Below, piece after piece: positions 1 through 20,856 of a stretch of DNA of 35,477 nt. A model generated the notes under the pieces. It saw nothing but the letters and a program-made list of their open reading frames with translations. It had not been told where the DNA came from and did no database searches. This DNA is from a virus: the UHGV virus genome UHGV-1967114. One strand, given 5' to 3'. The position numbers and the translations under genes were made by a program. How positions within the stretch are numbered: position 1 is the stretch's first letter; the number at the start of each line of letters is the position of its first letter.

Positions 1-263
1 CTGAAGCGTTGACCCAGGGCGAAACAGTTGCTGAAGCGATGGAAGCGGCAAAAGATGCTTTACTGACCGCATTTGATTTTTATTTTGAAGATAATGAGCT
101 AATCCCGTTGCCTTCGCCATTAACTAACAACGATCACTTTATTGAAGTACCTTTGAGCGTCGCCTCTAAAGTATTGCTGTTAAATGCTTTTTTACAGTCA
201 GAAATCACTCAGCAAGAGTTAGCCAGGCGAATTGGCAACCCGAATGTAGTCAACCCAAAATAA
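1..263 (+). CDS. hicB: HicB-family antitoxin, 5' portion of a gene interrupted by prophage insertion (truncated by window start); ORF now ends in 8 phage-derived codons (NPNVVNPK) then stop
   Basis: In-frame translation ...TQGETVAEAMEAAKDALLTAFDFYFEDNELIPLPSP...SEITQQELARRIG matches my recollection of E. coli HicB N-domain plus first half of an XRE-type HTH; second half of the HTH is found at 35268..35381 on the same strand. Confidence 0.75.
   Translation, partial: EALTQGETVAEAMEAAKDALLTAFDFYFEDNELIPLPSPLTNNDHFIEVPLSVASKVLLLNAFLQSEITQQELARRIGNPNVVNPK
231..246. other. attL junction: host ATTGGC - AA - phage CCCGAATG; putative 2-bp crossover AA at 237-238
   Basis: hicB reading frame diverges immediately after codon GGC-AA; compare attR at 35261..35276 where hicB frame resumes after AA. 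Confidence 0.55.
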
Positions 264-4147: not shown

Positions 4148-4606
4148 ATTGTTATTTATACGGGGATTGTTTTTTAATTTTTCAACCCCTCACATTTATC
4201 TCTTATATATGTATTTATAACAGAGATATGTTAAAATGTTATTCAGATGTTATCAGGCGTGTTAAATGTGTTAAACCACAGCACGAATTGCTAAAGCGAA
4301 GAACGCGATTTAACCAAATTGATGTATATTTAATCAATTTAGAAAAATGCATAGCACTTTTTGCTAAAGCGGTGAGTATTAATTGAGCTATGAATTGTAA
4401 AGATTTGTTACAGGATTTTCTCTCAGATCCAAACCTTAACAGACATATAACAATTTAACAGGATAATAACAATAGGAAGGAAAATCGGTAAATTTTTACT
4501 TTCAATACAAATATTATAACATATTTATCTCGAATTGTCAATTATACCACTGTTCCTACACAGTGTCAACAAAGGACTTTCAAACCTACACTAGCCCTAC
4601 ACTATG

Positions 4607-4785
4607 AAAATTGCCCCTGAACCAAAATCCCCTAGATTTCACATCCCATTTTTGCCCCTGAAACCCACTATTTTTGCCCCTGAAATTCTGGGAAACAGTG
4701 ATTTTGCCCCTCATTTTTGCCCCTGAAATGCCAATAATTGCCCCTGAAAATCTAATTTTTGCCCCTGAAATTTGCCCCCGAAAAG
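4607..4785 (+). repeat. Array of 8 direct repeats, consensus TTTTTGCCCCTGAAA, spacing 13-41 bp, in a 1.37-kb non-coding region; candidate iterons / protein-binding array
   Basis: Copies at about 4611, 4652, 4674, 4704(variant CTCA), 4717, 4738, 4759, 4772(variant CCCCCGA), all same orientation. Confidence 0.8.
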
Positions 4786-7127: not shown

Positions 7128-7135
7128 TAATTTTT

Positions 7136-7164
7136 GCCCCTGAATTTCAGGGGCTTTTTGTTTT
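7136..7164 (+). terminator. Intrinsic terminator built from one copy of the TTTTTGCCCCTGAA motif paired with its inverted partner (GCCCCTG-AATTT-CAGGGGC + T-run)
   Basis: 7-bp GC stem, 5-nt loop, TTTTTGTTTT immediately downstream of stop at 7127. Confidence 0.65.
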
Positions 7165-8185: not shown

Positions 8186-10099
8186 ATGAAACTGATTTCT
8201 AATAAGGCCAAATTAAAAAAGATTCTCAGAAATGCAGCCAAATATATTACGCCACCGCCTAAACTCCTTCCTTCTGAATGGTGCGAAGCGAATCTAACGC
8301 TAGTCGATGGTCCTCGTGCTGGGGATAAAGTTAAATTACTGTCATTTCAGAAAGGCATGATTGATGCTCCTTTCCTTGAGAAGAAAAAGAAGTACGTTTT
8401 TTGTACGAGTGCGCAGATCGGAAAGACGACCATCATGTCAGGGATCATGTTTAACCAGATGGCAAACGATCCGTGCAATATCATTATCGGGCAAAGTACC
8501 GCTAAAGAAGTGGCTATGTACTTGAATACTAAGATCCGTCCTTCTATTGAAGCATGTCCGGCATTACAGGAAGTGGTAACAGATAAGAATGATCGTAATG
8601 CGGTAAACAACAATAACCAGATTCAGCTAAAAACAAACCATTTCCTTTACATGGTTTCTTTGACCAGTCCTTCAAGTTTGCGTGGGCGTACTGCCAAGTT
8701 AGGGATTGTAGACGAATGCGACGCAGCAACAATCACCGAAGAAGGTTGTCCGGTGGCACTAACTGCAAACCGTTTAACTACCTTTGGTGATGAAGCTCGA
8801 TTGATTGTTTCTAGTACCCCAACCAATAAGCTGGGAATCATTAACCAGCAATGGTTATCAAGTGATATGCGTATGTTTTTTGTTCCGTGTCCTCATTGCG
8901 GGGAACACCAGGTGATCGAGTGGGAAAACGTTCAATTTGAATGGCGTAACATCGATGGTAAGAACTTACCCGATCCTGATACCGCTCGTTATATTTGCCC
9001 CCACTGTAAGCAATCATGGACAGAAGGGGAACGAATCAGGGCAGTAGCGCAAGGCGAGTGGAGAGCAACCCGTGAAAGTGAAGTAGCAGGATTCTGGATC
9101 AGCCGTCTGTATTCACCTTTCAGTAGTATCCGCGCTTGTGTGGTTGATTTTAGTCATGCGTGGCAATCCTTTGATTTACAATCATTTTATAACACAGTGT
9201 TAGGTAAGGTATACGACGATCAGGACACGGCAGTAGAAGCAAATGAACTGGAACAACTCAAAACAGATGTTTCTATCGAGAATATCCCTGATGACGTGAT
9301 TTTCTTGTGTGCGGGTACTGACCAGCAATTAGATCGCGCAGAAACTACGATCATGGGCGTGGCAAAGGATAAGATTTATATTCTGGATCATCGCAGCTTT
9401 TACGACCATAACTGTGAACGATATGAATCTCCTGTATGGGACAGATTAATCAACTTCCATAAAACCAAATTTACTACTGTATCGGGTGATCGTGTTCCTA
9501 TGCTCGCCAGCTTCCTTGATACATCGAACGGTCGATTCACTCAAGCCGGATACCGTATTTGCGGTGGTAAGTGGAAGAACTTACACGCAATCAAAGGTAG
9601 TTCATCTGGTACTGCTCCAATCATTCCGGTGAAACCAACTACCACGGGTGGTCATGAATTGCTTATGTTGGGCGTTAACGTGGGTAAAACGGCTATTCGT
9701 GAGCTATTAACACGCAACTTGAAAGAAAACCCTCATATTGGTTTAGAGATATCAGAAACCGTTCCTGATGATTATCTCGATCAGCTTTTGAGTGAATCCA
9801 TCAAGCGTACTGTTACTGGAACACGTTGGGTAAAAAATCCAGGTGCGACACGAAACGAGGCGCTCGACTGTCTGGTTTATAGCTATGCGGCTTCTCGCTA
9901 TGTTCTTTCAAAAATGTCATGGGATAAGCTCATTGCAATGAAAGAAAAGCTGAATCGTGAACCAGAAGCAACCGTAGAAGCTCCTAAATCACATTCTAAC
10001 GAGCAAATCGAAGAAACTAAGCCAATCACTCATCACAAACCTAATCGTCGTCCTATGGCGCGTCCTGTGCGTCGTGGTGGGTGGGTAAATAACTTTTAA
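8186..10099 (+). CDS. Terminase large subunit (lambda gpA-like ATPase/nuclease)
   Basis: 637 aa; Walker A-like SAQIGKTT and Walker B LGIVDECD; CPHCGEH...CPHCKQ motif; position upstream of portal. Confidence 0.85.
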
Positions 10100-10675: not shown

Positions 10676-12187
10676 ATGTTTAATCTTTTTCGACGCAAAA
10701 AGGCGGTAGAAACTCCAGTTAAAACTAATCACCGCCAGCAACAACCAAAAATTTTCATCGACAAATCTATAGAAAGATACCAGAAAGACATATCTAAACG
10801 TAGTTTAGGACTGGTTGGTGATCGCATTGATGGATCGCTTCAACAAGATACTATCACAGGAACCTTCAATAAGGCTCTCAAATCGAACGGTAAGCGCCTT
10901 TATGATCAGGGTCGTACTCTGGCCTTAAACACTTCCGTAGGCAGTCGCTACACGCAATACATCACCGATATGGTGGTTGGTACTGGTCTAGATCCGAAGC
11001 CGTCAGTTGTTAAATCAAATGGCAAACTTGATAGCGCACTGAATAAGCAGATCGAGAATGCTTTCTGGAAGTGGGCGCAGAATGCTAAACGCTTCTCTCG
11101 TAACGGTCGCTTTAACTTCCGTGAATTGCTGGTAATGGCTGAACGTGAGCGCGTTATGGGTGGTGAGTGCTTCATAGTTTTAACCAAAGAAAACAATGAG
11201 TTAAATGTTTCTATCCTGTCTGCTGATAAGTGCGACTGGACGCTCAACCGTGAAGTAAGCAAAGAACGCGCTATCTATCAGGGGATCGAGTATGACGTAG
11301 AAACAATGCGCCCTGTTGCATTTTGGTTTCGTAAAATCAACCTACTGACTCAGACTTACACAGGTGATAACTATCGCGTAGATGCTTCGCAAGTATGCCA
11401 TTATTATCAACCACTTGCGGCCGAATCTCTGCGTGGTGTGACTGACTTCCTGCCAGTGATCAAGGATATTGCGCATCAAGACGCATTCCGCGAAACCGCG
11501 ATCATCCAGAAACGTATTGCAGCTAGCTCTATGGGCTTTATCGAACGTCCGAAAGATTCTGGTGACGATTTTGATACTGGTGAAGAGGATGAACAATATC
11601 AAGCGCCGGAAGTAGTACAGGATTTTGCACCGGGTACTATTCAGGAATTGCCGGAAGGGGCAACGATTAAATCAATCCAAGCTACTCAATCAGGCGATGA
11701 TTTCAATTCCTTCAATGATGCGATGTTTACTAGCGTATCAATGGGCTTAGGCGTGTTCAAACAGGGCTTAACAGGAGATTGTTCACAAATCAACTACTCA
11801 GCCGCGCGTTTCGGCGAATTGCTTCAACGTAACCGTGTTAAATCGCTGCAAAACAAATTGATTGAAACAGTGGTGTTGCCAATTTTCGAAGCGTATCTGC
11901 GTCATTATTCTGCGCGTGGTATTGTTCCGATTCGTATTACTGCAATTCCACATATTATCGATAACACTACTATTATCAGGCCACGTTTCGAGTCTGTCGA
12001 TGTTATTAAAGACGTAAACGCTGATATTGCTTTAATTGATAAAGGACTTAAATCACGTACTGCCGTTATTCTTGAACGTGGTGATGATCCTGAAAAAGTA
12101 TTCTCAGAGATTCAAGCCGAAAAGAGCGCACTAAATATTATCGTTAATGGCGAGGGTGAAGAAAAAAATTCCCCAGCCGATCCCTAA
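10676..12187 (+). CDS. Portal protein
   Basis: 503 aa, immediately downstream of terminase large subunit and upstream of protease/capsid gene; acidic region typical of portals. Confidence 0.7.
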   Translation: MFNLFRRKKAVETPVKTNHRQQQPKIFIDKSIERYQKDISKRSLGLVGDRIDGSLQQDTITGTFNKALKSNGKRLYDQGRTLALNTSVGSRYTQYITDMVVGTGLDPKPSVVKSNGKLDSALNKQIENAFWKWAQNAKRFSRNGRFNFRELLVMAERERVMGGECFIVLTKENNELNVSILSADKCDWTLNREVSKERAIYQGIEYDVETMRPVAFWFRKINLLTQTYTGDNYRVDASQVCHYYQPLAAESLRGVTDFLPVIKDIAHQDAFRETAIIQKRIAASSMGFIERPKDSGDDFDTGEEDEQYQAPEVVQDFAPGTIQELPEGATIKSIQATQSGDDFNSFNDAMFTSVSMGLGVFKQGLTGDCSQINYSAARFGELLQRNRVKSLQNKLIETVVLPIFEAYLRHYSARGIVPIRITAIPHIIDNTTIIRPRFESVDVIKDVNADIALIDKGLKSRTAVILERGDDPEKVFSEIQAEKSALNIIVNGEGEEKNSPADP

Positions 12188-12232: not shown

Positions 12233-14233
12233 ATGCTTAAATTTCGCCGCGATCTTAACGGTTACGGTGGAGTTATTAACGAAGGGCAGAATGATCAATA
12301 CGAATTTGAAATTGCTTTCTCCAGTGAACAGCCTTATCAGCGCCAATTCTGGGATGAGCAAAATCAAGAAATGGTGGTATTAGATGAAATTCTGGTACAT
12401 ACACCGGAAGCGGTTGATCTGTCTCGTCTGAATAATAACGCTCCGTTGCTGTTCAATCATAATTTCGATAATCACATTGGTGTCGTTTGTAACGCTCGAA
12501 TCGATGCGGATAACGTAGGTCGTGCTCTGGTTAAATTCTCCAAGCATGGCACTTTGGCTAATGATATTCGTAATAAAGTCATTGAAGGTACGATGGAAAA
12601 AATTTCTGTCGGTTATGACATTAAAGAATATCACATCGACTACACCAAAGGACAATTGATTGTTACTAAGTGGGCACCCTATGAACTCTCATTTGTCACC
12701 GTTCCCGCAGACGATACGGTCGGTTTAAATCGCTCTCTAAATACTATCACAGTTAATTTGGAGGCTAAACGCGATATGACTAAAGAACAAATCGAAGAAA
12801 TCAAAGAAGAACAAGAACCCGCTCAGGTTGAAGAAACTCCGGTAGAAGAAATTAAAGAACCGGAAGTTGAAGAAACTCAAGAGCGCCAAGTTGAAGAGAA
12901 TAAAGAAAATGAAAATCTCGAAGACGGAAAAGACGCTGAACATCCTGAAAGTGTTGATGATGATAGTTCAACTGTTCGGGAAGAAGAAGTAAAAGAAGAA
13001 CGTGAAGCCGCTCCGGTTGAAGAAGAAAAAATCGAAGAAGTGGCTGAACGTTCCGAAGAAGACGAATTAGAAATTCGCGAGATCGCTCGCGAGCTAAATA
13101 TTAACGACGAAGAATTAGAACGCGCATTGGCAGTTAAAGACATGACGCCGGAAGCATTCCGCACTAAGGCACTAAATAACATTACCAATGCTCAACGTAA
13201 TAACGAACAAATTAAGGACTCTAAAATGGAAAAAACTTTTGACCTGAACAACGTAATTCGCTCTCTGGTAGATGGTGCTGCTCTGGGTGCTAACGAAGCT
13301 GAATATTCCGCTATGGCTGCTGGTGCTGCAATGCAGCGTGGTCGTGCTGCTCGCGGTGGCTCTGTATTCGTTCCGGCTGCTGCTCTGCGTGCTGCTTCCG
13401 AAGGTAACACCAAAGCTACTCTGACCGCTGTAACTGACGAAAAACTGCTGACCGAATCCTATGTTGAAATGCTGTTGCCTCAGAGTGTTTTAGGCCGCCT
13501 CGGTGTGACTGTTCTGTCTGGTCTGAATGCTCCGATTGCTGTACCGAAAATGACTACTTCCAGCGTTGATGCTTTCGGTTTCGTTGATGAAAACGGTGCT
13601 GCACCGGAAAGCAAAGCTGAATTTGCAAACGTGAAAATGGCTCCGAAAACTTTTGCTGGTGGCAACCCGATCAGCCGTCAGTCTCTGAAAACTGTTCCGA
13701 ATATTGCTACCCTGATCACCGATCACATTAACAAATCTGTTCGGATCAAACTGGAACAACTGATTCTGTCTGATAAAGAAAATGCTCGTGGTCCGGCTGG
13801 TCTGGTTAAGCAACTGGTAGACGCGGGTCGCGTTACTAAGAAAGCCGCTTTCTCTTACAAAGACTTCCTGAAAGAAATTGCAGCACTGACCGACGCTGGC
13901 GTTCCTGCTCAGGCGATCAAGTTTGCGATGAGCGGTGCAACTGCTGCTGAACTGGAATCTACCCTGAAAGATAACGGCGTTTCCGGTTATATCATCGAAA
14001 ACGGCAAACTGGCTGGTTACGAAGTAGTTACTTCTGGTGTTATCCCGGCAGACCACATCGTTCTGGGCGCGTTCGACGGTATCACCATTGGTGAGTGGGG
14101 CGGTCTGGAACTGGATATGGACGACACTACCTACCGCGCACAGTCTGCTATCGTTCCGCGAATCTGGGTAGACCTGGATTATGTTGTTACTCAGCCGGAA
14201 GCCCTGAAAGTTCTTCACATCTCCGCTGAATGA
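12233..14233 (+). CDS. Prohead protease - scaffold-like acidic coiled-coil - major capsid protein (HK97-fold) fusion
   Basis: N-terminal motif LLFNHNFDNHIGV...SVGY...ELSFVTVPADD resembles HK97-type prohead protease (recollection); residues ~180-330 are E/K-rich; C-terminal ~330 aa capsid-like. Confidence 0.7.
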   Translation: MLKFRRDLNGYGGVINEGQNDQYEFEIAFSSEQPYQRQFWDEQNQEMVVLDEILVHTPEAVDLSRLNNNAPLLFNHNFDNHIGVVCNARIDADNVGRALVKFSKHGTLANDIRNKVIEGTMEKISVGYDIKEYHIDYTKGQLIVTKWAPYELSFVTVPADDTVGLNRSLNTITVNLEAKRDMTKEQIEEIKEEQEPAQVEETPVEEIKEPEVEETQERQVEENKENENLEDGKDAEHPESVDDDSSTVREEEVKEEREAAPVEEEKIEEVAERSEEDELEIREIARELNINDEELERALAVKDMTPEAFRTKALNNITNAQRNNEQIKDSKMEKTFDLNNVIRSLVDGAALGANEAEYSAMAAGAAMQRGRAARGGSVFVPAAALRAASEGNTKATLTAVTDEKLLTESYVEMLLPQSVLGRLGVTVLSGLNAPIAVPKMTTSSVDAFGFVDENGAAPESKAEFANVKMAPKTFAGGNPISRQSLKTVPNIATLITDHINKSVRIKLEQLILSDKENARGPAGLVKQLVDAGRVTKKAAFSYKDFLKEIAALTDAGVPAQAIKFAMSGATAAELESTLKDNGVSGYIIENGKLAGYEVVTSGVIPADHIVLGAFDGITIGEWGGLELDMDDTTYRAQSAIVPRIWVDLDYVVTQPEALKVLHISAE

Positions 14234-14254
14234 ACTCCTGTAGAACCATCTTAA

Positions 14255-14362
14255 CCTTCCCCCGATTTGGGGGAAGAAAATCTGATTCCTGAACCGGAAG
14301 AAGAATCCCAGACGGTTAAGGCGAAAGCCACAGCTAAAAAACAGCGTAAAACTAAAGAATAA
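14255..14362 (+). other. Pro/Glu-rich + Lys-rich coding module (PSPDLGEENLIPEPEEESQTVKAKATAKKQRKTKE) in the same frame as the capsid gene but separated from it by TGA and TAA; homologous to the extension after the tail tube gene
   Basis: Frame and 15-nt identical core GGCGAAAGCCACAGC shared with 20176..20301; synonymous differences preserve K/R residues. Confidence 0.4.
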
Positions 14363-14367
14363 TAATT

Positions 14368-14397
14368 AGCCCTGCCGTTATTGGCGGGGCTTTTTTG
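14368..14397 (+). terminator. Intrinsic terminator (AGCCCTGCC-GTTATT-GGCGGGGC + T6)
   Basis: Strong GC stem and T-run; near-identical copy at 20307..20336. Confidence 0.75.
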
Positions 14398-15132: not shown

Positions 15133-15966
15133 ATGAATATTACACAAGATAACTTAGATATTTTCACTGGATCACATGTTGAAGTGTCGATCTCTAACCA
15201 GATAGACAATCAGGTCGACTTTTTCGATCCTAGCTTTAGTTCTATGGAGAACATCGCAGCATTCCCTACGCTAACCGAATCCACAGAGATAGAAACTCTG
15301 GAAGAGTACGATCAGGACGCTACGGGGAAACTTGCTGGTTATCGTAGACTGGAACCGACAACACTCACATTAAACCGTGTTCTTGACGATGAACATCAAG
15401 CAATGTTGATGAAAGCGGTAGAGGATAAAACACCTTTACGCTTCCGTATGTTCTATGTTGTGAACTCTGGCTATAGTGCTGCTAACACAGGGTACTTTTG
15501 TATATTCGATGCTTACGTCACATCACATAAAACCCGTGGTAGTGATAACAAAGCTGTAACACTGGAATTTAAACTTGAACCAGATGGCGGGATTCTAGCA
15601 AGGGGTATAGCGACCGAGGGAAAAATTCTGCGACAAGGGGATTATGGCGTAGGCTCAGGCGTTAGCCCATTCACCGGACCTATTGATAGTGAATCTCTGA
15701 CAGGAAACCGCTTCGTAACCTACAAAGGAACGGCTAGCACTAACCCTTATGGTGCTGATACATCATTAATTCACCTTCAAGCTAATGAGCATGGCGCATG
15801 GCAATTAACCTGTAATACTTCCGGTGCACCACGTTTACGTGTCCGAAATATTCAGGAAAACGGTCGCTCTGAATGGATCAAGGTATATTCCACCAATGAG
15901 AAACCGACACCTAGCGAAATTGGCGCAGTGGCTAAGACTGATAGAATCGACTTCGGTGAGTATTAA
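15133..15966 (+). CDS. Tail-tube-like paralog (N-domain related to 19702..20175) with extra C-terminal domain carrying KPTPSEIGA motif
   Basis: Shared DIFTG...LTL...ED.T...F....VT.EF...DG pattern with the gpV-like protein; C-terminal motif shared with tail fiber. Confidence 0.5.
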   Translation: MNITQDNLDIFTGSHVEVSISNQIDNQVDFFDPSFSSMENIAAFPTLTESTEIETLEEYDQDATGKLAGYRRLEPTTLTLNRVLDDEHQAMLMKAVEDKTPLRFRMFYVVNSGYSAANTGYFCIFDAYVTSHKTRGSDNKAVTLEFKLEPDGGILARGIATEGKILRQGDYGVGSGVSPFTGPIDSESLTGNRFVTYKGTASTNPYGADTSLIHLQANEHGAWQLTCNTSGAPRLRVRNIQENGRSEWIKVYSTNEKPTPSEIGAVAKTDRIDFGEY

Positions 15967-16041: not shown

Positions 16042-19000
16042 ATGCAATCAATCCAATTTAAACGCACACAAACGGCTGGTAAAAAACCAACGCCGGAACA
16101 ATTACAGGTCGGTGAAATCGCTATTCAGATGGCAGACCATGTAATTTACACCAAAGACAAAAATAACGCAGTAGTTCAAATCAGCGTTTCCCCAGAAAGT
16201 CATAATGCTTTAAACACGAAAGTAGACAATAACAAAACTAGCACTGACCGTGTTATTGCTTCCAACAAACAAGAGGCCGCTAATAATCTGGCTAGTGCTA
16301 AAGCTGAACTGAATCAGACTATTACCACGAAAGATACAGCGACCAATAAGCGCATTGATGCTACCAACACCACTGTTAGTAACTTAACCCAGACAGTTAC
16401 GGCAAATAAAACCGATGCCGACACTAAGATCAATAACCTTACGGGGACCGTATCTGCGAATAAGACCGCAATTGAAAGAACCGTTGCCGCAAACAAATCT
16501 GATGCAGATAGCAAACATGCAGCTTTAACGAAAACGGTCACTGACAATAACACCGCGATTAACAACAAGGTTAATACCACTAACACCAACGTTAGCAACT
16601 TAACTAAAACTGTTACTGCAAATAAAACCGATGCAGATAACAAAATTTCTAGCTTAACTAGCACGGTTGCAGCTAACAAGACAGCGATCGAAAAGACTGT
16701 TTCCGACAATAAGAAAGACGCGGATACTAAGATTACCAATCTTACTGGCACTGTTAATAGCAACCATACCGCAATTAACAACAAGGTAGACCAGAATAAA
16801 TCTTCTACTGATGCCGCAATTGCAGCCGCTAACAAACGAATTGATGGTATTGAAGGTAGCAATGATGCTCTTTACATCAAGAAGAATACCAATACTAAGC
16901 ATGGTGGGTATCTGTTAAGCAAGACAGCTAACTATCTGGAAGACCAGACATCACGAGATCTTAACTACTTTGGTGCTTTCCGTACCAATGGTCAAGATGG
17001 ACTCATGGATCTAACTCTTAACGTTCCTCACTCTTCCGGTAAAGCGCACGGTCGCGGATTTACTTTCCGTTATGCATCTGGTGGATCTCGTGTTGAAACC
17101 TATGGTTTTGATAGAGAAGGACAGAAGAACTTTAGCTATAAGATGTATCACGAAGGTGATAAGCCGACTCCTGGCGAGATTGGTGCATACACCAAAGCCG
17201 AAGTTGATAAGATGTTTGTTAAAAACGTCGTTATGTCTGTTCCCAATTCTAGCGAAAACGTATCTGCATATTTCAAATTGGCAACCGCAACAATTCCACA
17301 AAACGGGCGTAGTGTGTTTTTCCGTATTCATGGTGGTAATGGTTACAACGTTACGGCATATGATCAGGTTGACGTAGTAGAAATTCTTCTGCGTAGTGGT
17401 AACGATAGACCTAAAGGTCTTAACGTAATTGCATACCGTAGAAATACAAACAAAGATTTTGAGGTATTTGCTGTCAATACTTCCGGTGATAACTATGATA
17501 TCTACGTGAAATATCAGCGTTATACCGATAACGTTATTGTCGAATATGGGAAATCTGTTTATGTAAGTTTGACGGTTTATGATACGCCGGAAGCCACGTT
17601 AATTAAACCTTCCGTTGGTGTTATCGGTGGTCGCAACGTAACTCTTTTTAATACTGAAAATAAACGTGGTGTGTTAAGTTTTGATGATAACACACAAAAC
17701 AGCTATGACATTGTTCATCTAAGTAATGATAAAGGTACTGGACGGAAATATATTCGTAAATTCCGTAGCAACTATAACGAAATGGTTTGGCATGAAACCG
17801 TTCAGGGTGCTGTATATCGTCTTGCTACTGGTGCTACAGATTCTACAGAAGTTATTAGAATTGATTCTAATAGTGCAATACCGGGTAATTATAAAGGATA
17901 TGTAATTACTGGTAAAATGGAATTGCACGGTAGTGGTAATGCGATGACTTTACATCGACAGACTGGTCAAGCTGCATATATGGCGTGGTGGGATCGTCGT
18001 GATGGTAAAAACCAACGTAGTGGTTATATCGGTCATGCGGATGGTACTAGTGATGGTTTTGTGTGGCGTAATGATGTTGGTGCTAACTCATTTGATTTGG
18101 AAGGTAGTGGACAAGTAAATTTGACTACAGGAAAAACAAAAATTGTATATACCAATGGTCAATATTATTCCGCTAACGCTGATGCATTCCGTATGATTTA
18201 CGGTAAGTATGGTGCATTCTGGCGAAATGATGGTGGTAAAGTTTATCTGTTGTCTACTGCCGAAAATGATAGATTTGGTGGTTGGAATACATATCGACCT
18301 TTTATCTACGATCTTACTTCCGGTAACGTTCAATTAGGTGGTGATGGAAACGAAGATGTATTAACTCTAGAACGCGCAAGCAAGGCCGCTCGATTCTCTG
18401 GCAACGCTTACATCAAAGGTCAACATTTAACATTTGATGCTGGTGCTGGACAATCCCGCGATTACTTCCGGTTTAACCATTGGGGCGATAGTAATAACGC
18501 TCGCGATAACATCCTACAGATTGAAGACAGTCAGGGTGCACACTTTACCACTGAACGCGCTATGGGTACTGGCAATATCACAGCACGTTTTAAAGGCTTC
18601 GTGCGTGTAGAATCCGGTGAGATTGCCTTTGATGCTAATCGTGGATCTGCGTCTCAATTTACCTTACATACATGGGGTAACGAGCAACGCAAACAGGTTT
18701 TTGAATGTAAGGATGCTACTAGTTATCATTGGTATACCGAACGTACAAACGGTGGAACTGGTCCTATCCTGTTCTCTGTTGCTGGTACATTAAAAACTGC
18801 GAGCAATATACAGGTTGGCGGTGCTGATATTGAGTTTCGTCGCAGTGGTAATAAGCATTTATGGTTTAGAGATCCGAACGGTTTAGAATTAGGTTTGATG
18901 TACTGCGATGATGCTGGTGTTATCCGCTTCCGTGGTCAGAAACAAGGTCAAACTTGGAAACTTGCTGATAAAATGATTCATCTTGAGGCGGGGACTGTCG

Positions 19001-19644
19001 GCGGGTCTGATAAAGGTTTGATTCGTGGTAATGTTGCTGGTGGTAGCTGGGCTAGCTGGCGTGATCGTTCTGCCGGAATCCTCGTAGACTGTCCGAACTC
19101 AACCGATTCCGCTCATAACATCTGGAAAGCGACTCATTGGGGAAAATATCATATTGCGGCAATGGGTGTGCATGTTCCTAGTGGTACTATTACCAATGCT
19201 TTAGCTCGCCTAAACGTTCACGACGCCAACTTTGACTTTAACGCTGCGGGTGATTTTAGCGCAGGTCGTAACGGTAGCTTTAACGATGTTTACATTCGCT
19301 CTGACTCCCGTTTGAAGATTAACAAGGAAGAATTACAGGACGGTGCATTAGAGAAAGTAAACTCACTGAAAGTCTACACCTACGATAAAGTTAAATCTCT
19401 TTCCGATGACACGGTGATTAAACGCGAAGTAGGTATTATTGCTCAGGATCTGGAAAAAGTATTGCCGGAAGCAGTAGGTATTCAATCCACAGAAGATCCA
19501 GAACAACCGGAAGCAATCAAGACTATTTCTAACTCTGCTGTTAATGCCTTGATTATTAAAGCTATGCAGGAAATGGACGCCAAATATAAAACACAGATCG
19601 AAGCATTACAGAAAGAAATTGCCGAACTGAAAGCAACTAAATAA
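16042..19644 (+). CDS. Tail fiber protein (1200 aa) with N-terminal repetitive shaft and C-terminal intramolecular chaperone (peptidase S74-like) domain
   Basis: Repeats TVTANKTDADTKI...; C-terminal YIRSDSRLKINKEELQ...LKVYTYDK matches endosialidase-type chaperone signature (recollection). Confidence 0.75.
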   Translation: MQSIQFKRTQTAGKKPTPEQLQVGEIAIQMADHVIYTKDKNNAVVQISVSPESHNALNTKVDNNKTSTDRVIASNKQEAANNLASAKAELNQTITTKDTATNKRIDATNTTVSNLTQTVTANKTDADTKINNLTGTVSANKTAIERTVAANKSDADSKHAALTKTVTDNNTAINNKVNTTNTNVSNLTKTVTANKTDADNKISSLTSTVAANKTAIEKTVSDNKKDADTKITNLTGTVNSNHTAINNKVDQNKSSTDAAIAAANKRIDGIEGSNDALYIKKNTNTKHGGYLLSKTANYLEDQTSRDLNYFGAFRTNGQDGLMDLTLNVPHSSGKAHGRGFTFRYASGGSRVETYGFDREGQKNFSYKMYHEGDKPTPGEIGAYTKAEVDKMFVKNVVMSVPNSSENVSAYFKLATATIPQNGRSVFFRIHGGNGYNVTAYDQVDVVEILLRSGNDRPKGLNVIAYRRNTNKDFEVFAVNTSGDNYDIYVKYQRYTDNVIVEYGKSVYVSLTVYDTPEATLIKPSVGVIGGRNVTLFNTENKRGVLSFDDNTQNSYDIVHLSNDKGTGRKYIRKFRSNYNEMVWHETVQGAVYRLATGATDSTEVIRIDSNSAIPGNYKGYVITGKMELHGSGNAMTLHRQTGQAAYMAWWDRRDGKNQRSGYIGHADGTSDGFVWRNDVGANSFDLEGSGQVNLTTGKTKIVYTNGQYYSANADAFRMIYGKYGAFWRNDGGKVYLLSTAENDRFGGWNTYRPFIYDLTSGNVQLGGDGNEDVLTLERASKAARFSGNAYIKGQHLTFDAGAGQSRDYFRFNHWGDSNNARDNILQIEDSQGAHFTTERAMGTGNITARFKGFVRVESGEIAFDANRGSASQFTLHTWGNEQRKQVFECKDATSYHWYTERTNGGTGPILFSVAGTLKTASNIQVGGADIEFRRSGNKHLWFRDPNGLELGLMYCDDAGVIRFRGQKQGQTWKLADKMIHLEAGTVGGSDKGLIRGNVAGGSWASWRDRSAGILVDCPNSTDSAHNIWKATHWGKYHIAAMGVHVPSGTITNALARLNVHDANFDFNAAGDFSAGRNGSFNDVYIRSDSRLKINKEELQDGALEKVNSLKVYTYDKVKSLSDDTVIKREVGIIAQDLEKVLPEAVGIQSTEDPEQPEAIKTISNSAVNALIIKAMQEMDAKYKTQIEALQKEIAELKATK
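16366..16797 (+). repeat. In-gene tandem coding repeats (two ~216-nt units with ~33-nt subrepeats) in tail fiber shaft
   Basis: Near-identical stretch ACTGTTACTGCAAATAAAACCGATGC at ~16390 and ~16611; explains spurious minus ORF 16314..16862. Confidence 0.6.
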
Positions 19645-19651
19645 TAAAAGT

Positions 19652-19670
19652 CGGGGGACTAGTTCCCCCG
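19652..19670 (+). terminator. Stem-loop after tail fiber gene (CGGGGGA-CTAGT-TCCCCCG), weak T-run
   Basis: Perfect 7-bp stem; downstream TTATAAACAATTTT is only moderately U-rich. Confidence 0.35.
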
Positions 19671-19701
19671 TTATAAACAATTTTAATTAAGGGGTAATTC
19701 T

Positions 19702-20175
19702 ATGTCTCAGCAATTTAAAGATATTTTTACTGGTGGTCTGGTAAGTATGTTCTATCACGCCGATACCACTAACACCAATCTTGCACATGAAAGCTATGAA
19801 GAAATTAAAGAGTGTGCTGGTTTTCCTGAAACTGGTATCGAGCGCGGCACTGTAGAAGTTAAATCCTTCTCTTCTCAGTATAACCGTAAGCTGGTAGGTA
19901 AACTGAACGTTCCTGATCTGACTCTGACCGTTAACTACATTCCTGGTGATGCGGTACACGAGAAGCTCATTAAAGCTGCCGAAGACGGTACTCGAATTCA
20001 GATTAAGATTGAATACTATGTAGATGCAGCAAAACAGACTGGTATTCGCACAGCTTTCAACGGCTTCATCTCTAAAGTTGCTATGAACGGTGGCGATGAA
20101 GAAGTGGTAACGAAAGAGTTTACCTTTGCTGTTGATGGTGCTCCGCTGAAACAGCAAATCTTCACTGCCGGATGA
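19702..20175 (+). CDS. Major tail tube protein (lambda gpV-like N-domain)
   Basis: Pattern PGD...L....EDGT...I......F.GF......G..EVVT..F...VDG resembles gpV; RBS TAAGGGGTAA; position upstream of chaperones and tape measure. Confidence 0.7.
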   Translation: MSQQFKDIFTGGLVSMFYHADTTNTNLAHESYEEIKECAGFPETGIERGTVEVKSFSSQYNRKLVGKLNVPDLTLTVNYIPGDAVHEKLIKAAEDGTRIQIKIEYYVDAAKQTGIRTAFNGFISKVAMNGGDEEVVTKEFTFAVDGAPLKQQIFTAG

Positions 20176-20301
20176 ACTAACGAAGAACTTCCTTTACCAG
20201 AACCGGAACCACTGCCGGAACATGAAGCGGTGGTGATTCCAGAAGTAGAAGAAGTTACGGCGAAAGCCACAGCAAAACGAGGCCGCAAGGCTAAGAATTA
20301 A
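20176..20301 (+). other. 41-codon in-frame extension directly after the tail tube UGA stop (TNEELPLPEPEPLPEHEAVVIPEVEEVTAKATAKRGRKAKN); candidate readthrough product
   Basis: Same frame as 19702..20175 with a single intervening TGA; homologous to 14255..14362. Confidence 0.45.
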
Positions 20302-20306
20302 TTTTA

Positions 20307-20336
20307 AGCCCTGCCTTAATGGTGGGGCTTTTTTAT
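20307..20336 (+). terminator. Intrinsic terminator (AGCCCTGCC-TTAAT-GGTGGGGCT + T6)
   Basis: Paralogous copy of terminator at 14368..14397. Confidence 0.75.
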
Positions 20337-20349
20337 TGGAGTAATCAAA

Positions 20350-20856
20350 ATGGCAAATGTCGTTAAAGTTCCTGGCTGGATCGGGTCATCTGCTGTATCG
20401 GTGACGGGTAAGCGATGGATGAAAGAAGCATTAACAGCTTTAAAAGTTCCGGCTCCGCGTAATATGTCGGCAATGGCTGGTCGTGGTATGGATACGGTTG
20501 TAGCTACTGCATCGTGGTCTACTTCATTGGGTAATAACTGGGGTGTAACTGCTTCAAACTATCCTGTTTCCGGTATGCAAAGCAAAGGATCTATGGAGAA
20601 CCCCGAAAACGTGGGCGTAGGGCGTCTGGTTGGCGTTATCGTTGGTCAATTCAATGGCGGTACTCCTACTATGGCTGTATATCTCCAGAACGGTAGAGCG
20701 GGGAATATAACCGTTAATTTGGGTGGTGCTGCTGTCACTGTTCCTTATAACAGTATGCAAAGTGGTTTTCATTACTATTGGTTAAGCAATCCTCCGGCTG
20801 CTTTCCTAACAAATATTAAGAAAACTGGCACTAAGCAGACTTTGAAAATCTCTTAA
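20350..20856 (+). CDS. Hypothetical Gly/Ser/Thr-rich protein inserted between tail tube terminator and tail chaperone genes
   Basis: 168-aa ORF with RBS GGAG; no lambda counterpart at this position. Confidence 0.5.
   Translation: MANVVKVPGWIGSSAVSVTGKRWMKEALTALKVPAPRNMSAMAGRGMDTVVATASWSTSLGNNWGVTASNYPVSGMQSKGSMENPENVGVGRLVGVIVGQFNGGTPTMAVYLQNGRAGNITVNLGGAAVTVPYNSMQSGFHYYWLSNPPAAFLTNIKKTGTKQTLKIS

What the first reader, a model, noticed from the sequence alone, without database searches (positions are those of the whole stretch)
14228..14397. Same extension module after the capsid gene, separated by a 39-nt insert with two stops and a GC hairpin: possible bypass, or a decayed extension
After the capsid TGA (14231-14233) the same frame carries TAA at 14252-14254, then from 14255 a 35-codon module homologous to the tail-tube extension (shared 15-nt core GGCGAAAGCCACAGC and near-identical terminator stem AGCCCTGCC). 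Relative to the tail-tube copy, the capsid copy carries a 39-nt (13-codon, frame-preserving) insert between the stop and the homologous GAAGAA, containing a perfect 8-bp hairpin CTTCCCCC-GATTT-GGGGGAAG (14256-14276). The last sense codon GAA (14228-14230) recurs as GAA at 14273 and 14276 inside the hairpin 3' arm, a geometry reminiscent of T4 gene 60 translational bypassing (matching take-off/landing codons, stop after take-off, gap ~42-45 nt). Alternatives are an independently duplicated 3' cassette or a decayed readthrough signal.
Basis: inference. Interest (0 to 1): 0.8.

Follow-up and report, generated by a model that had tools for sequence, protein, structure and literature searches.

The report
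Leaky-stop tail cassette, locally broken
In this E. coli prophage the capsid and tail-tube genes both end in a leak-prone UGA stop followed by an in-frame, lysine-rich tail, most likely added to a few percent of subunits by readthrough; the capsid copy here is cut short by one private mutation, not skipped by ribosome hopping.

Summary

The bypass reading fails. In 38 distinct related capsid loci the "39-nt insert" is open reading frame, and the TAA at 14252-14254 is GAA. Against strain PI7 this G>T is the only difference in 27,178 bases. No copy of the TAA was found in 5,426 E. coli genomes or in IMG/VR.

The real feature is family-wide:
- The capsid (MCP) and tail-tube (TTP) genes are the two most codon-optimised late genes. 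They are the only late genes ending in TGA; the rest use TAA.
- The stop is always TGA-A, the context reported as most misread by tRNA-Trp in E. coli.
- An in-frame extension of 24-45 codons follows. It has a Pro/Glu-rich linker and a Lys/Arg-rich tip, then TAA(TAA) and a terminator.
- Frame 0 is open in every relative, frames +1/+2 never are, and all indels are multiples of three.
- TTP alleles without the extension end in TAA.
- The cassette also follows capsid alleles only about 40% identical, including one in Providencia.

Best reading: programmed UGA readthrough, unannotated, with no description found. It rests on sequence evidence only, and amino-acid constraint on the extension is weak.

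The parts
12233..14233 (+). Prohead protease-scaffold-major capsid protein fusion gene (666 codons), ending in TGA
   Evidence: Pfam Peptidase_S78 plus Phage_capsid and PHROG 617. The MCP part has the highest codon optimality of the late genes, Fop 0.84.
14231..14234 (+). UGA-A tetranucleotide, the proposed leaky stop of the capsid gene
   Evidence: TGA-A is invariant in 35 distinct close capsid contexts and 3 distant ones. UGA followed by A is reported as the context most misread by tRNA-Trp in E. coli (PMC5289835).
14234..14251 (+). First six codons of the capsid extension (TPVEPS)
   Evidence: In frame with the capsid gene and conserved in relatives.
14252..14254 (+). Private TAA nonsense codon; GAA in all relatives
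   Evidence: This is the only mismatch to E. coli PI7 in 27,178 nt. No 100% match was found in 5,426 E. coli genomes, and there were 0 exact hits in IMG/VR.
14255..14365 (+). Remainder of the capsid extension (PSPDLGEENLIPEPEEESQTVKAKATAKKQRKTKE) plus the TAATAA double stop
   Evidence: Frame 0 is open in 17 distinct relatives' variants, and frames +1 and +2 always carry stops.
14256..14276 (+). 8-bp hairpin inside the long-allele extension
   Evidence: Seen in the fold. It is invariant among the 14 distinct long alleles aligned, and one later-sampled long allele (L109) changes only a loop base. The short allele lacks it and has a different hairpin at another distance, so it is not a shared signal.
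14320..14334 (+). Shared core GGCGAAAGCCACAGC (codes AKAT), capsid copy
14368..14397 (+). Intrinsic terminator of the capsid cassette
   Evidence: 10-bp stem followed by a T run.
19702..20175 (+). Major tail tube gene (157 codons), ending in TGA-A
   Evidence: PHROG 158. The AF2 model best matches the phage lambda gpV tube domain, E 1e-6. Fop 0.66.
20176..20301 (+). Intact 41-codon in-frame tail-tube extension (TNEELPLPEPEPLPEHEAVVIPEVEEVTAKATAKRGRKAKN) plus TAA
   Evidence: Open in all 22 distinct related contexts, with 3n indels only.
20259..20273 (+). Shared core GGCGAAAGCCACAGC, tail copy
20306..20336 (+). Intrinsic terminator of the tail cassette

Best explanation
The region is the 3' cassette of a stop-codon readthrough system found across this E. 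coli prophage family.

The capsid and tail-tube genes each end in UGA-A. Most ribosomes terminate there. A small fraction is inferred to insert Trp via tRNA-Trp; published UGA leakiness is about 0.1-1%. Those ribosomes continue in frame through a Pro/Glu-rich spacer and a Lys/Arg-rich tip (some alleles are AT-hook-like, ..KKVGRPPKAK), then stop at TAA(TAA) just before an intrinsic terminator.

A few subunits per virion would then carry a flexible cationic tail on the outer surface of head and tail. This is the position where lambda gpV carries its Ig-like domain. The tail is presumably for weak adhesion to polyanionic surfaces or DNA.

In this window the capsid copy has just been disabled. A G>T change turns codon 7 of the extension (GAA) into TAA, so readthrough adds only W-TPVEPS. 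The tail-tube copy is intact.

Shown: the anatomy, the conservation, the frame and stop-codon statistics, and the private nature of the TAA. Inferred: that readthrough happens, its level, surface exposure, and function.
For: 1. The TAA is private.
- It is GAA in all relatives sampled.
- It is the sole difference from strain PI7 over 27,178 nt.
- It is absent from 5,426 E. coli genomes and from IMG/VR.

2. The stop choice is unusual.
- Of 34 annotated prophage CDSs, 28 end in TAA and 6 in TGA.
- In the late operon only MCP and TTP use TGA.
- These two are the most codon-optimised genes, Fop 0.84 and 0.66 against 0.49-0.59 for the others.
- Highly expressed E. coli genes normally avoid UGA (PMC4989110).

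3. The stop is always UGA-A, the context prone to tRNA-Trp misreading in E. coli (PMC5289835).

4. The frame is maintained.
- Frame 0 is open in 17 capsid and 15 tail variants, and frames +1 and +2 always contain stops.
- At least 8 indel events are all multiples of three.
- About 4.5% of random substitutions would create a stop. With at least 81 variable sites, about 3.6 such events are expected, and none is seen outside the window.

5. TGA and the extension go together.
- 35 of 36 distinct close capsid contexts have TGA-A plus an open extension. The exception is the window.
- So do 22 of 22 close TTP contexts.
- TTP alleles at 56-73% identity in the same prophage family end in TAA followed directly by a terminator, with no extension, while their capsid genes keep TGA plus the extension.
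- Of the distant capsids sampled, most end in TAA (most followed by a stop within 20 codons). The six that end in TGA are three TGA-A contexts that carry the cassette and three TGA-T contexts that do not.

6. The cassette stays in frame after unrelated partners.
- It follows capsid alleles only about 40% identical (L123, L131).
- It follows a Providencia capsid: TGA ACT AAC GAA GAG TTG CCG.. = TNEELPEEEPLPVATEKSTKRRKSK.

7. Related TTPs and MCPs in Edwardsiella, Proteus, Salmonella and Hafniaceae carry short basic tails encoded directly. A BLASTP alignment of the E. coli readthrough product with the Edwardsiella TTP runs across the stop position.

8. The TTP model matches the lambda gpV tube domain, so the extension starts where the gpV Ig-like domain starts.
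Against: - There is no protein-level evidence. The extension peptide is absent from 5.8 billion predicted protein clusters. The one 198-aa "fusion" (P0002) is a gene-caller artefact that read TGA as W.
- Amino-acid constraint is weak. pN/pS is 0.72 (capsid) and 0.42 (tail), against 0.26 and 0.16 in the gene bodies. Variable sites are not concentrated at third positions.
- The 20-nt core is conserved at synonymous sites as well. This could reflect gene conversion or an RNA-level role.
- No shared stimulatory RNA structure exists. Hairpins sit at +14, +26 and +34, without covariation.
- In the Edwardsiella and Proteus capsid genes the homologous peptide is in the -1 frame, starting at a GTG that overlaps the TGA. 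That fits a separate small ORF or a frameshift better than readthrough.
- The relatives are closely related E. coli prophages, so the counts are not independent.
Confidence: 0.65

Rival explanations
1. Translational bypassing (T4 gene 60-like). Peptidyl-tRNA-Glu would take off at GAA 14228-14230, slide over TGA..TAA, and land on GAA 14273 or 14276.
For: The take-off and landing codons match, a stop follows the take-off codon, and the gap is about 42-45 nt with a hairpin.
Against: - The "gap" is open, in-frame and conserved in all relatives, and the TAA is a private SNP.
- GAA makes up 20% of the codons there, so a match is expected by chance.
- No take-off stem-loop covers the stop codon. The hairpin is at the landing side.
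- The nascent-peptide region varies among relatives (..HISAE..QIGGE..KMGEE).
- The defining features of gene 60 (PMC7026636) are not met.
Confidence: 0.02
2. An untranslated 3' cassette. The shared module would be a 3'-UTR element, such as an mRNA-stabilising or terminator module or a 3'-derived small RNA with the conserved 15-20 nt core as seed. It would have been copied behind two highly expressed genes, and its ORF-like look would be incidental.
For: - The core and the terminator are conserved at the nucleotide level, including synonymous sites.
- pN/pS is near 0.4-0.7.
- No protein homologue was found.
- GGC-GAAA-GCC could form a mini-hairpin (third fold).
Against: - It does not explain the invariant TGA where TAA is the norm, or the TGA/extension association.
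- It does not explain the exclusive frame-0 openness or the 3n indels.
- It does not explain why the variable C-terminal segments stay basic despite different nucleotides (QRKTKE, ERKTKAK, VGRPPKAK, RGRKAKN, KRRKSK).
- It does not explain the directly fused tails in other genera.
- There is no Rfam match.
Confidence: 0.14
3. A separate small peptide. After termination at TGA, ribosomes would re-initiate and make a free 20-30 aa Lys-rich peptide rather than an extended capsid or tube protein. Candidate starts are the in-frame TTG at 14267 and a GTG in the tail copy. In Edwardsiella and Proteus the candidate is the GTG overlapping the stop.
For: In the Edwardsiella and Proteus capsid genes the homologous peptide starts at a GTG overlapping the stop (GTGA) in the -1 frame. 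This is a classic coupling arrangement.
Against: - In E. coli there is no start codon at a homologous position and no Shine-Dalgarno sequence.
- The 5-25 codons between the TGA and any candidate start are nevertheless kept open and in frame, with 3n indels only.
- Homology between the capsid-short, tail and Providencia cassettes begins at the first codon after the TGA ((T/N)NEELP).
Confidence: 0.1
4. The TAA is a sequencing or assembly error, the capsid cassette of this genome is intact, and nothing has decayed.
For: It is a single-base singleton in 27 kb that is otherwise identical to PI7, and it is absent from all other collections searched.
Against: - This cannot be tested without reads.
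- An independent GAA>TAA truncation of the directly encoded capsid tail is seen in a Hafniaceae relative (L178 against L179), so real losses of this kind do occur.
- This rival concerns only the state of this copy, not what the cassette is.
Confidence: 0.15
5. The UGA codes selenocysteine, directed by the downstream hairpin acting as a SECIS element.
For: UGA is followed by a stable hairpin in each allele, and E. coli has the Sec machinery (established knowledge).
Against: - The hairpins differ in sequence and lie at +14, +26 and +34. None has the loop or bulge features of the E. coli fdhF SECIS (my knowledge of that element).
- There is no covariation.
- No Rfam hit appeared even at E<=10.
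Confidence: 0.01

Closest known systems
Coliphage Qbeta A1 (readthrough) protein
   Same: The abundant coat protein gene ends in a leaky UGA that tRNA-Trp reads at a low rate. A minor, C-terminally extended coat species results and is incorporated into virions (Weiner and Weber 1973, as cited in PMC5289835; details from my own knowledge). The host and the stop codon are the same. By my recollection, which I did not verify here, the UGA-A context is also the same.
   Different: Qbeta is an ssRNA levivirus and its extension is a folded domain of about 196 aa needed for infection. Here the phage is a tailed dsDNA prophage and the extension is 24-45 residues of low-complexity sequence. It sits on two different structural genes, and nothing has been tested experimentally.
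Listeria phages PSA, A118 and A500: recoded C-terminal variants of both the capsid (cps) and tail (tsh) proteins
   Same: In one siphovirus, both the major capsid and the major tail protein genes yield a second, C-terminally longer product through recoding at or near the stop codon (PMC5009743).
   Different: Those phages use +1 or -1 ribosomal frameshifting (for example CCC_UGA), sometimes with a pseudoknot. Here the extension is in the zero frame behind UGA, so no shift is needed.
Ig-like or FN3 C-terminal decorations of tail tube and capsid proteins (lambda gpV C-domain, T3 10B, SPP1 gp17.1*)
   Same: The attachment point is the same. The TTP model matches the gpV tube domain and ends where the gpV Ig-like domain begins. 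These decorations are accessory and often sub-stoichiometric, and they are frequently added by recoding (PMC5009743).
   Different: The extension here has no fold or domain. It is an acidic Pro/Glu spacer with a short cationic tip. The only Pfam signal is a sub-threshold AT_hook match in some alleles.
T4 gene 60 translational bypassing
   Same: A stop follows a codon that recurs downstream, and a hairpin lies nearby.
   Different: There is no take-off stem-loop and no conserved non-coding gap. The intervening sequence is coding in all relatives.

Membership tests
T4 gene 60-type translational bypass | Matched take-off and landing codons flanking a non-coding gap of about 50 nt | tested here: not met
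   GAA recurs, but it makes up 7 of the 35 codons. The "gap" is open and in frame in all relatives, and the second stop is a private SNP.
T4 gene 60-type translational bypass | Take-off stem-loop that includes the stop codon next to the take-off codon (PMC7026636) | tested here: not met
   The fold of 14216-14300 shows no stable helix over 14228-14240. The only robust helix is 14256-14276.
T4 gene 60-type translational bypass | Conserved nascent-peptide signal upstream of the take-off site | tested here: inconclusive
   The C-terminal residues vary among relatives (HISAE, QIGGE, KMGEE, HISE). Function cannot be tested here.
Programmed stop-codon readthrough (Qbeta A1-like) | A leaky stop codon in a leaky context | tested here: met
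   UGA-A is invariant at both genes in all cassette-bearing loci. The leakiness of this context is documented in PMC5289835 and PMC4989110.
Programmed stop-codon readthrough (Qbeta A1-like) | A downstream zero-frame ORF kept open across relatives, ending in a strong stop | tested here: met
   Met for the family and for the window's tail copy. Not met for the window's capsid copy, which has the private TAA at 14252.
Programmed stop-codon readthrough (Qbeta A1-like) | Protein-level purifying selection on the extension | tested here: inconclusive
   pN/pS is 0.72 (capsid) and 0.42 (tail), against 0.26 and 0.16 in the gene bodies. Composition is conserved but sequence only weakly.
Programmed stop-codon readthrough (Qbeta A1-like) | An extended protein species is made and incorporated into virions | not testable with these tools
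   This needs proteomics, reporters or ribosome profiling.
Frameshift-derived capsid/tail variants (PSA, A118, T7 10B) | The extension lies in the +1 or -1 frame, reached at a slippery site | tested here: not met
   In E. coli and Providencia the extension is in frame 0. Only the Edwardsiella and Proteus capsid genes have it in the -1 frame.
AT-hook motif (Pfam PF02178) | A GRP core flanked by basic residues that scores above the Pfam threshold | tested here: not met
   The GRPPKAK alleles score 14.2-14.7 bits, below the 17.4-bit cut-off (E 0.03-0.04). The window's own alleles (KKQRKTKE, KRGRKAKN) give no hit.
Bacterial selenocysteine insertion (UGA + SECIS) | A SECIS hairpin at fixed spacing after the UGA | tested here: not met
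   Hairpin positions vary and none is shared between alleles. There are no Rfam matches.

The most novel reading that the evidence does not exclude
A portable recoding cassette has been grafted in frame onto the two most abundant virion proteins and moves among divergent capsid alleles and genera. It consists of the UGA-A leaky stop, an acidic Pro/Glu spacer, a cationic AT-hook-like tip, a double stop and a terminator. It would give tailed dsDNA phages a Qbeta-style, sub-stoichiometric and RF2-tunable surface decoration. I found no description of programmed stop-codon readthrough in structural genes of tailed phages, so this may be the first case.
Probability: 0.45. Interest if true: 0.75.

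Novelty: new variant of a known kind. Interest (0 to 1): 0.6.

Why it matters
If the readthrough is real, it adds stop-codon readthrough to the ways tailed phages make minor C-terminal variants of capsid and tail proteins. Until now these were attributed to frameshifting. It occurs in E. coli, where it can be tested directly.

It also exposes an annotation blind spot. PGAP leaves about 190 nt after the capsid gene and about 175 nt after the tail-tube gene empty in every genome checked. Finally, it points to a short cationic surface tail whose binding target (LPS, capsule, DNA or mucus) could affect adsorption or persistence.

For this window specifically, the lesson is cautionary. A bypass-like geometry was produced by one private nonsense mutation.

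Tried and rejected
- **Bypassing:** rejected on comparative grounds and on structure.
- **Selenocysteine or a known RNA family:** Rfam at E<=10 gave only sub-threshold hits, mostly overlapping the terminator region.
- **Phage-encoded suppressor tRNA:** no tRNA genes in the window.
- **A shared readthrough-stimulating hairpin:** each allele has a hairpin, but at +14, +26 and +34 and without compensatory changes.
- **A natural in-frame fusion:** P0002 (198 aa, W at the stop position) turned out to be TGA in the DNA. A gene caller had used a TGA=Trp code.
- **Homologues of the extension peptide:** none among 5.8 billion protein clusters, none in PHROGs, and only a sub-threshold AT_hook match in Pfam.
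- **Searches that found nothing useful:**
  - INPHARED phages gave one weak hit and no hit.
  - GTDB species genomes gave none, twice.
  - PDB by sequence gave none.
  - The third protein search, with the Proteus capsid, returned one irrelevant hit.
  - Viral-contig searches with the Edwardsiella and Proteus capsids found only the same contig.
- **The cassette behind other genes:** the conserved context TGAAMTAACGAAGARYTNCC found only the same capsid and tail-tube loci in IMG/VR. In JGI metagenomes it found those loci plus chance matches with no upstream ORF.
- **Literature:** seven full-text searches found no description of this system.
Full report
**Context**

The window is a complete siphovirus-type prophage of about 35 kb. 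Its late operon encodes:
- large terminase (8186-10099) and portal (10676-12187);
- a prohead protease-scaffold-major capsid fusion (12233-14233);
- head-tail connectors and a 277-aa tube-like paralogue;
- a gp37-like fibre;
- a 157-aa major tail tube protein (19702-20175);
- a gp38-like adhesin, chaperones, tape measure and tip proteins.

The host is Escherichia coli. The capsid region matches 58 of 5,426 complete genomes. In strain PI7 the prophage sits inside hicB next to a serine recombinase. PGAP annotates nothing in the ~190 nt after the capsid gene or the ~175 nt after the tail-tube gene.

**Checking the observation**

- TGA lies at 14231-14233, an in-frame TAA at 14252-14254, and an open 35-codon stretch at 14255-14359.
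- TAATAA follows, and then a terminator at 14368-14391.
- The 8-bp hairpin at 14256-14276 is the only robust helix in the local fold.
- The 15-mer GGCGAAAGCCACAGC occurs only at 14320 and 20259, with 0.09 matches expected by chance.
- The two 3' regions align over 81 nt at 72% identity and end in near-identical terminators.
- The tail-tube gene also ends in TGA (20173-20175). An intact 41-codon in-frame ORF follows, ending in TAA.

**What relatives show**

I collected related loci from IMG/VR, E. coli genomes and public assemblies.

In all 31 close capsid loci first examined the gene ends in TGA, and the in-frame sequence downstream is open up to TAATAA. The window's TAA is GAA in each of them (..CCA TCT GAA CCT..). 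The wider tally gives 35 of 36 distinct close capsid contexts with TGA-A plus an open extension of at least 20 codons. The one exception is the window itself.

Aligned against strain PI7, the window differs by exactly one base in 27,178 nt (8300-35477). That base is 14252, T against G. No complete E. coli genome matches the 151 nt around it at 100%, and the TAA-containing 27-mer is absent from IMG/VR. The second stop is therefore a private, very recent mutation or a base-calling error. The "39-nt insert" is part of a reading frame, not a gap to be bypassed.

**Why the family-wide feature looks like programmed readthrough**

*Stop choice.* Of 34 annotated prophage genes, 28 end in TAA and 6 in TGA. 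Within the late operon only the capsid and tail-tube genes use TGA. These two have by far the best codon adaptation, Fop 0.84 and 0.66 against 0.49-0.59 for the rest. Highly expressed E. coli genes normally prefer UAA and avoid UGA, and UGA is the leakiest stop at 10^-2 to 10^-3 (PMC4989110).

*Context.* The base after the stop is A in every cassette-bearing locus. UGA followed by A is the context reported as particularly prone to misreading by tRNA-Trp in E. coli (PMC5289835).

*Frame.* Frame 0 is open in 17 distinct capsid and 15 distinct tail variants, while frames +1 and +2 always contain stops. Lengths differ only by multiples of three: 95, 137, 140, 143 and 146 nt for the capsid cassette, and 119, 128 and 134 nt for the tail cassette. 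That is at least eight indel events. About 4.5% of random substitutions would create a frame-0 stop. With at least 81 variable sites, roughly 3.6 such events are expected under neutrality, and none is seen apart from the window's.

*Association.* Tail-tube alleles of the same prophage family at 73% and 56-60% identity end in TAA followed directly by a terminator, with no extension. The capsid genes of those same genomes keep TGA plus the extension. Most of the distant capsid relatives sampled (29-54% identical) end in TAA, and most of those meet another stop within 20 codons. The six distant contexts that end in TGA are three TGA-A contexts carrying the cassette (L123, L131, Providencia) and three TGA-T contexts without a frame-0 extension.

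*Portability in frame.* The cassette follows capsid alleles only ~40% identical to the window's (L123, L131). It also follows a Providencia capsid gene with diverged nucleotides: TGA ACT AAC GAA GAG TTG CCG.., coding TNEELPEEEPLPVATEKSTKRRKSK. Homology between the tail copy, the short capsid allele and the Providencia copy starts at the first codon after the TGA, with (T/N)NEELP.

*Direct fusions elsewhere.* Related tube and capsid proteins of Edwardsiella, Proteus, Salmonella and Hafniaceae end in short basic tails encoded without a stop..NVIPEAVAAKEK..LVKEK..ASGLRK..EAKSKD. A BLASTP alignment of the E. coli readthrough product with the Edwardsiella tube protein continues across the stop position to ..VIPE.

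**The extension itself**

It is low-complexity sequence: an acidic Pro/Glu-rich spacer followed by TAKATAK and a Lys/Arg-rich end. The ends seen are QRKTKE, ERKTKAK, (V/A)GRPPKAK, RGRKAKN and RSRKAKD. The GRPPKAK alleles give a sub-threshold Pfam AT_hook match at 14-15 bits against a cut-off of 17.4, and the window's alleles give none.

An AlphaFold model of the tube protein (pLDDT 69) best matches the phage lambda gpV tube domain (E ~1e-6). The extension therefore starts where the externally exposed Ig-like domain of gpV starts. From this I infer, but have not shown, that the tails are displayed on the outside of the virion in a few copies. There they could act as weak polyanion or DNA binders.

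**Caveats**

- No protein evidence exists. The peptide has no match among 5.8 billion clusters. The one apparent natural fusion (P0002) is a gene-caller artefact, since the DNA has TGA.
- Amino-acid-level constraint is weak. pN/pS is 0.72 and 0.42, against 0.26 and 0.16 in the gene bodies.
- The core is conserved at synonymous sites too. Gene conversion or an RNA-level role cannot be excluded.
- Each allele has a hairpin after the stop, but at +14, +26 and +34 and without covariation. I do not assign these a role.
- In the Edwardsiella and Proteus capsid genes the homologous peptide is in the -1 frame and begins with a GTG overlapping the TGA. That suggests termination-reinitiation or a -1 shift there, and keeps a "separate small peptide" model alive.
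- The sampled E. coli prophages are close relatives, so the counts overstate independence.

**Alternatives examined**

- Bypassing fails the defining features of gene 60, as described above.
- Selenocysteine and known RNA families find no support.
- There is no suppressor tRNA in the window.
- A search for the conserved context TGAAMTAACGAAGARYTNCC found the cassette only behind these two genes. This covered IMG/VR and JGI metagenomes.
- Seven full-text literature searches found no description of this system.
- The closest documented analogues are Qbeta A1 (UGA readthrough of a coat gene) and the Listeria phages PSA, A118 and A500. In those phages both capsid and tail proteins get a second C-terminus by frameshifting (PMC5009743).

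**Verdict**

The underlying feature is a conserved, unannotated UGA-A readthrough cassette on both the major capsid and the tail-tube genes of an E. coli prophage family. It is a plausible new variant of a known kind of recoding and is worth an experimental test.

My confidence levels are:
- about 0.97 that the TAA is a private change in an otherwise open extension;
- about 0.65 that the extension is really translated by readthrough;
- low for any specific function.

Noticed in passing
window 4635-4777 and 7130-7152: There are six copies of a ~22-nt repeat, ATTTTTGCCCCTGAAA.., at 21-43 nt spacing, with one distant copy. They look like iterons or operators in the early/replication region.
   Followed up: no
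window 15133-15966: A second tube-like gene (277 aa) has an N-terminal PHROG 158 tail-tube match and a C-terminal fibre-like segment. Its codon optimality is low (Fop 0.50) and it ends in TAA. It lies upstream of the gp37-like fibre and may be a minor tube paralogue or a fibre anchor.
   Followed up: partly
window 16042-20856: The gene order is unusual. The gp37-like long fibre gene (16042-19644) and its gp38-like adhesin (20350-20856) are separated by the major tail-tube gene and its cassette. In Edwardsiella the gp38-like gene sits directly after the fibre gene.
   Followed up: no
L104 (E. coli PI7), equivalent to window ~8303: The otherwise identical PI7 prophage carries a 109-nt insertion in the large terminase gene. 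It has the inverted repeats GGAAGGTGCGAATAAGT.. and a CTAG target duplication. From memory of IS5 ends, it looks like a miniature IS5 derivative. PGAP calls the gene frameshifted. The window lacks the insertion.
   Followed up: partly
L178 vs L179 (Hafniaceae-type relatives), end of the capsid gene: This is an independent GAA>TAA truncation of the directly encoded capsid tail..QPAGV TAA AKSKD TAA against ..QPAGAEAKSKD TAA. It parallels the window's mutation. Loss of the tail may recur, or these Glu-rich tails may simply be prone to nonsense mutations.
   Followed up: no
L112 (Edwardsiella) 2787-2860 and L116 (Proteus) 4570-4640: The capsid gene ends ..GGG TGA TAC / ..GAG TGA TAT. A homologous Lys-rich peptide (VIPTGREEVSVKSGRKPKTDN, VISQAVGSEVSVKKAKKAKAE) lies in the -1 frame and starts at a GTG overlapping the stop. 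This could be a -1 shift at the stop or a coupled mini-ORF.
   Followed up: partly
L105 / P0002 (ENA contig k141_243218): A public protein record of 198 aa fuses the tube protein and its extension with W at the stop position. The DNA has TGA, so a gene caller applied a TGA=Trp code to this short contig.
   Followed up: yes
L109 12926-13693: One E. coli relative has a NUMOD3-domain ORF, which looks like a homing endonuclease, inserted among the distal tail genes. The window lacks it.
   Followed up: no
window 1-131: Eleven of the twelve mismatches to PI7 cluster in the first 131 bases, at the prophage/hicB junction. The rest of the element is virtually identical.
   Followed up: no
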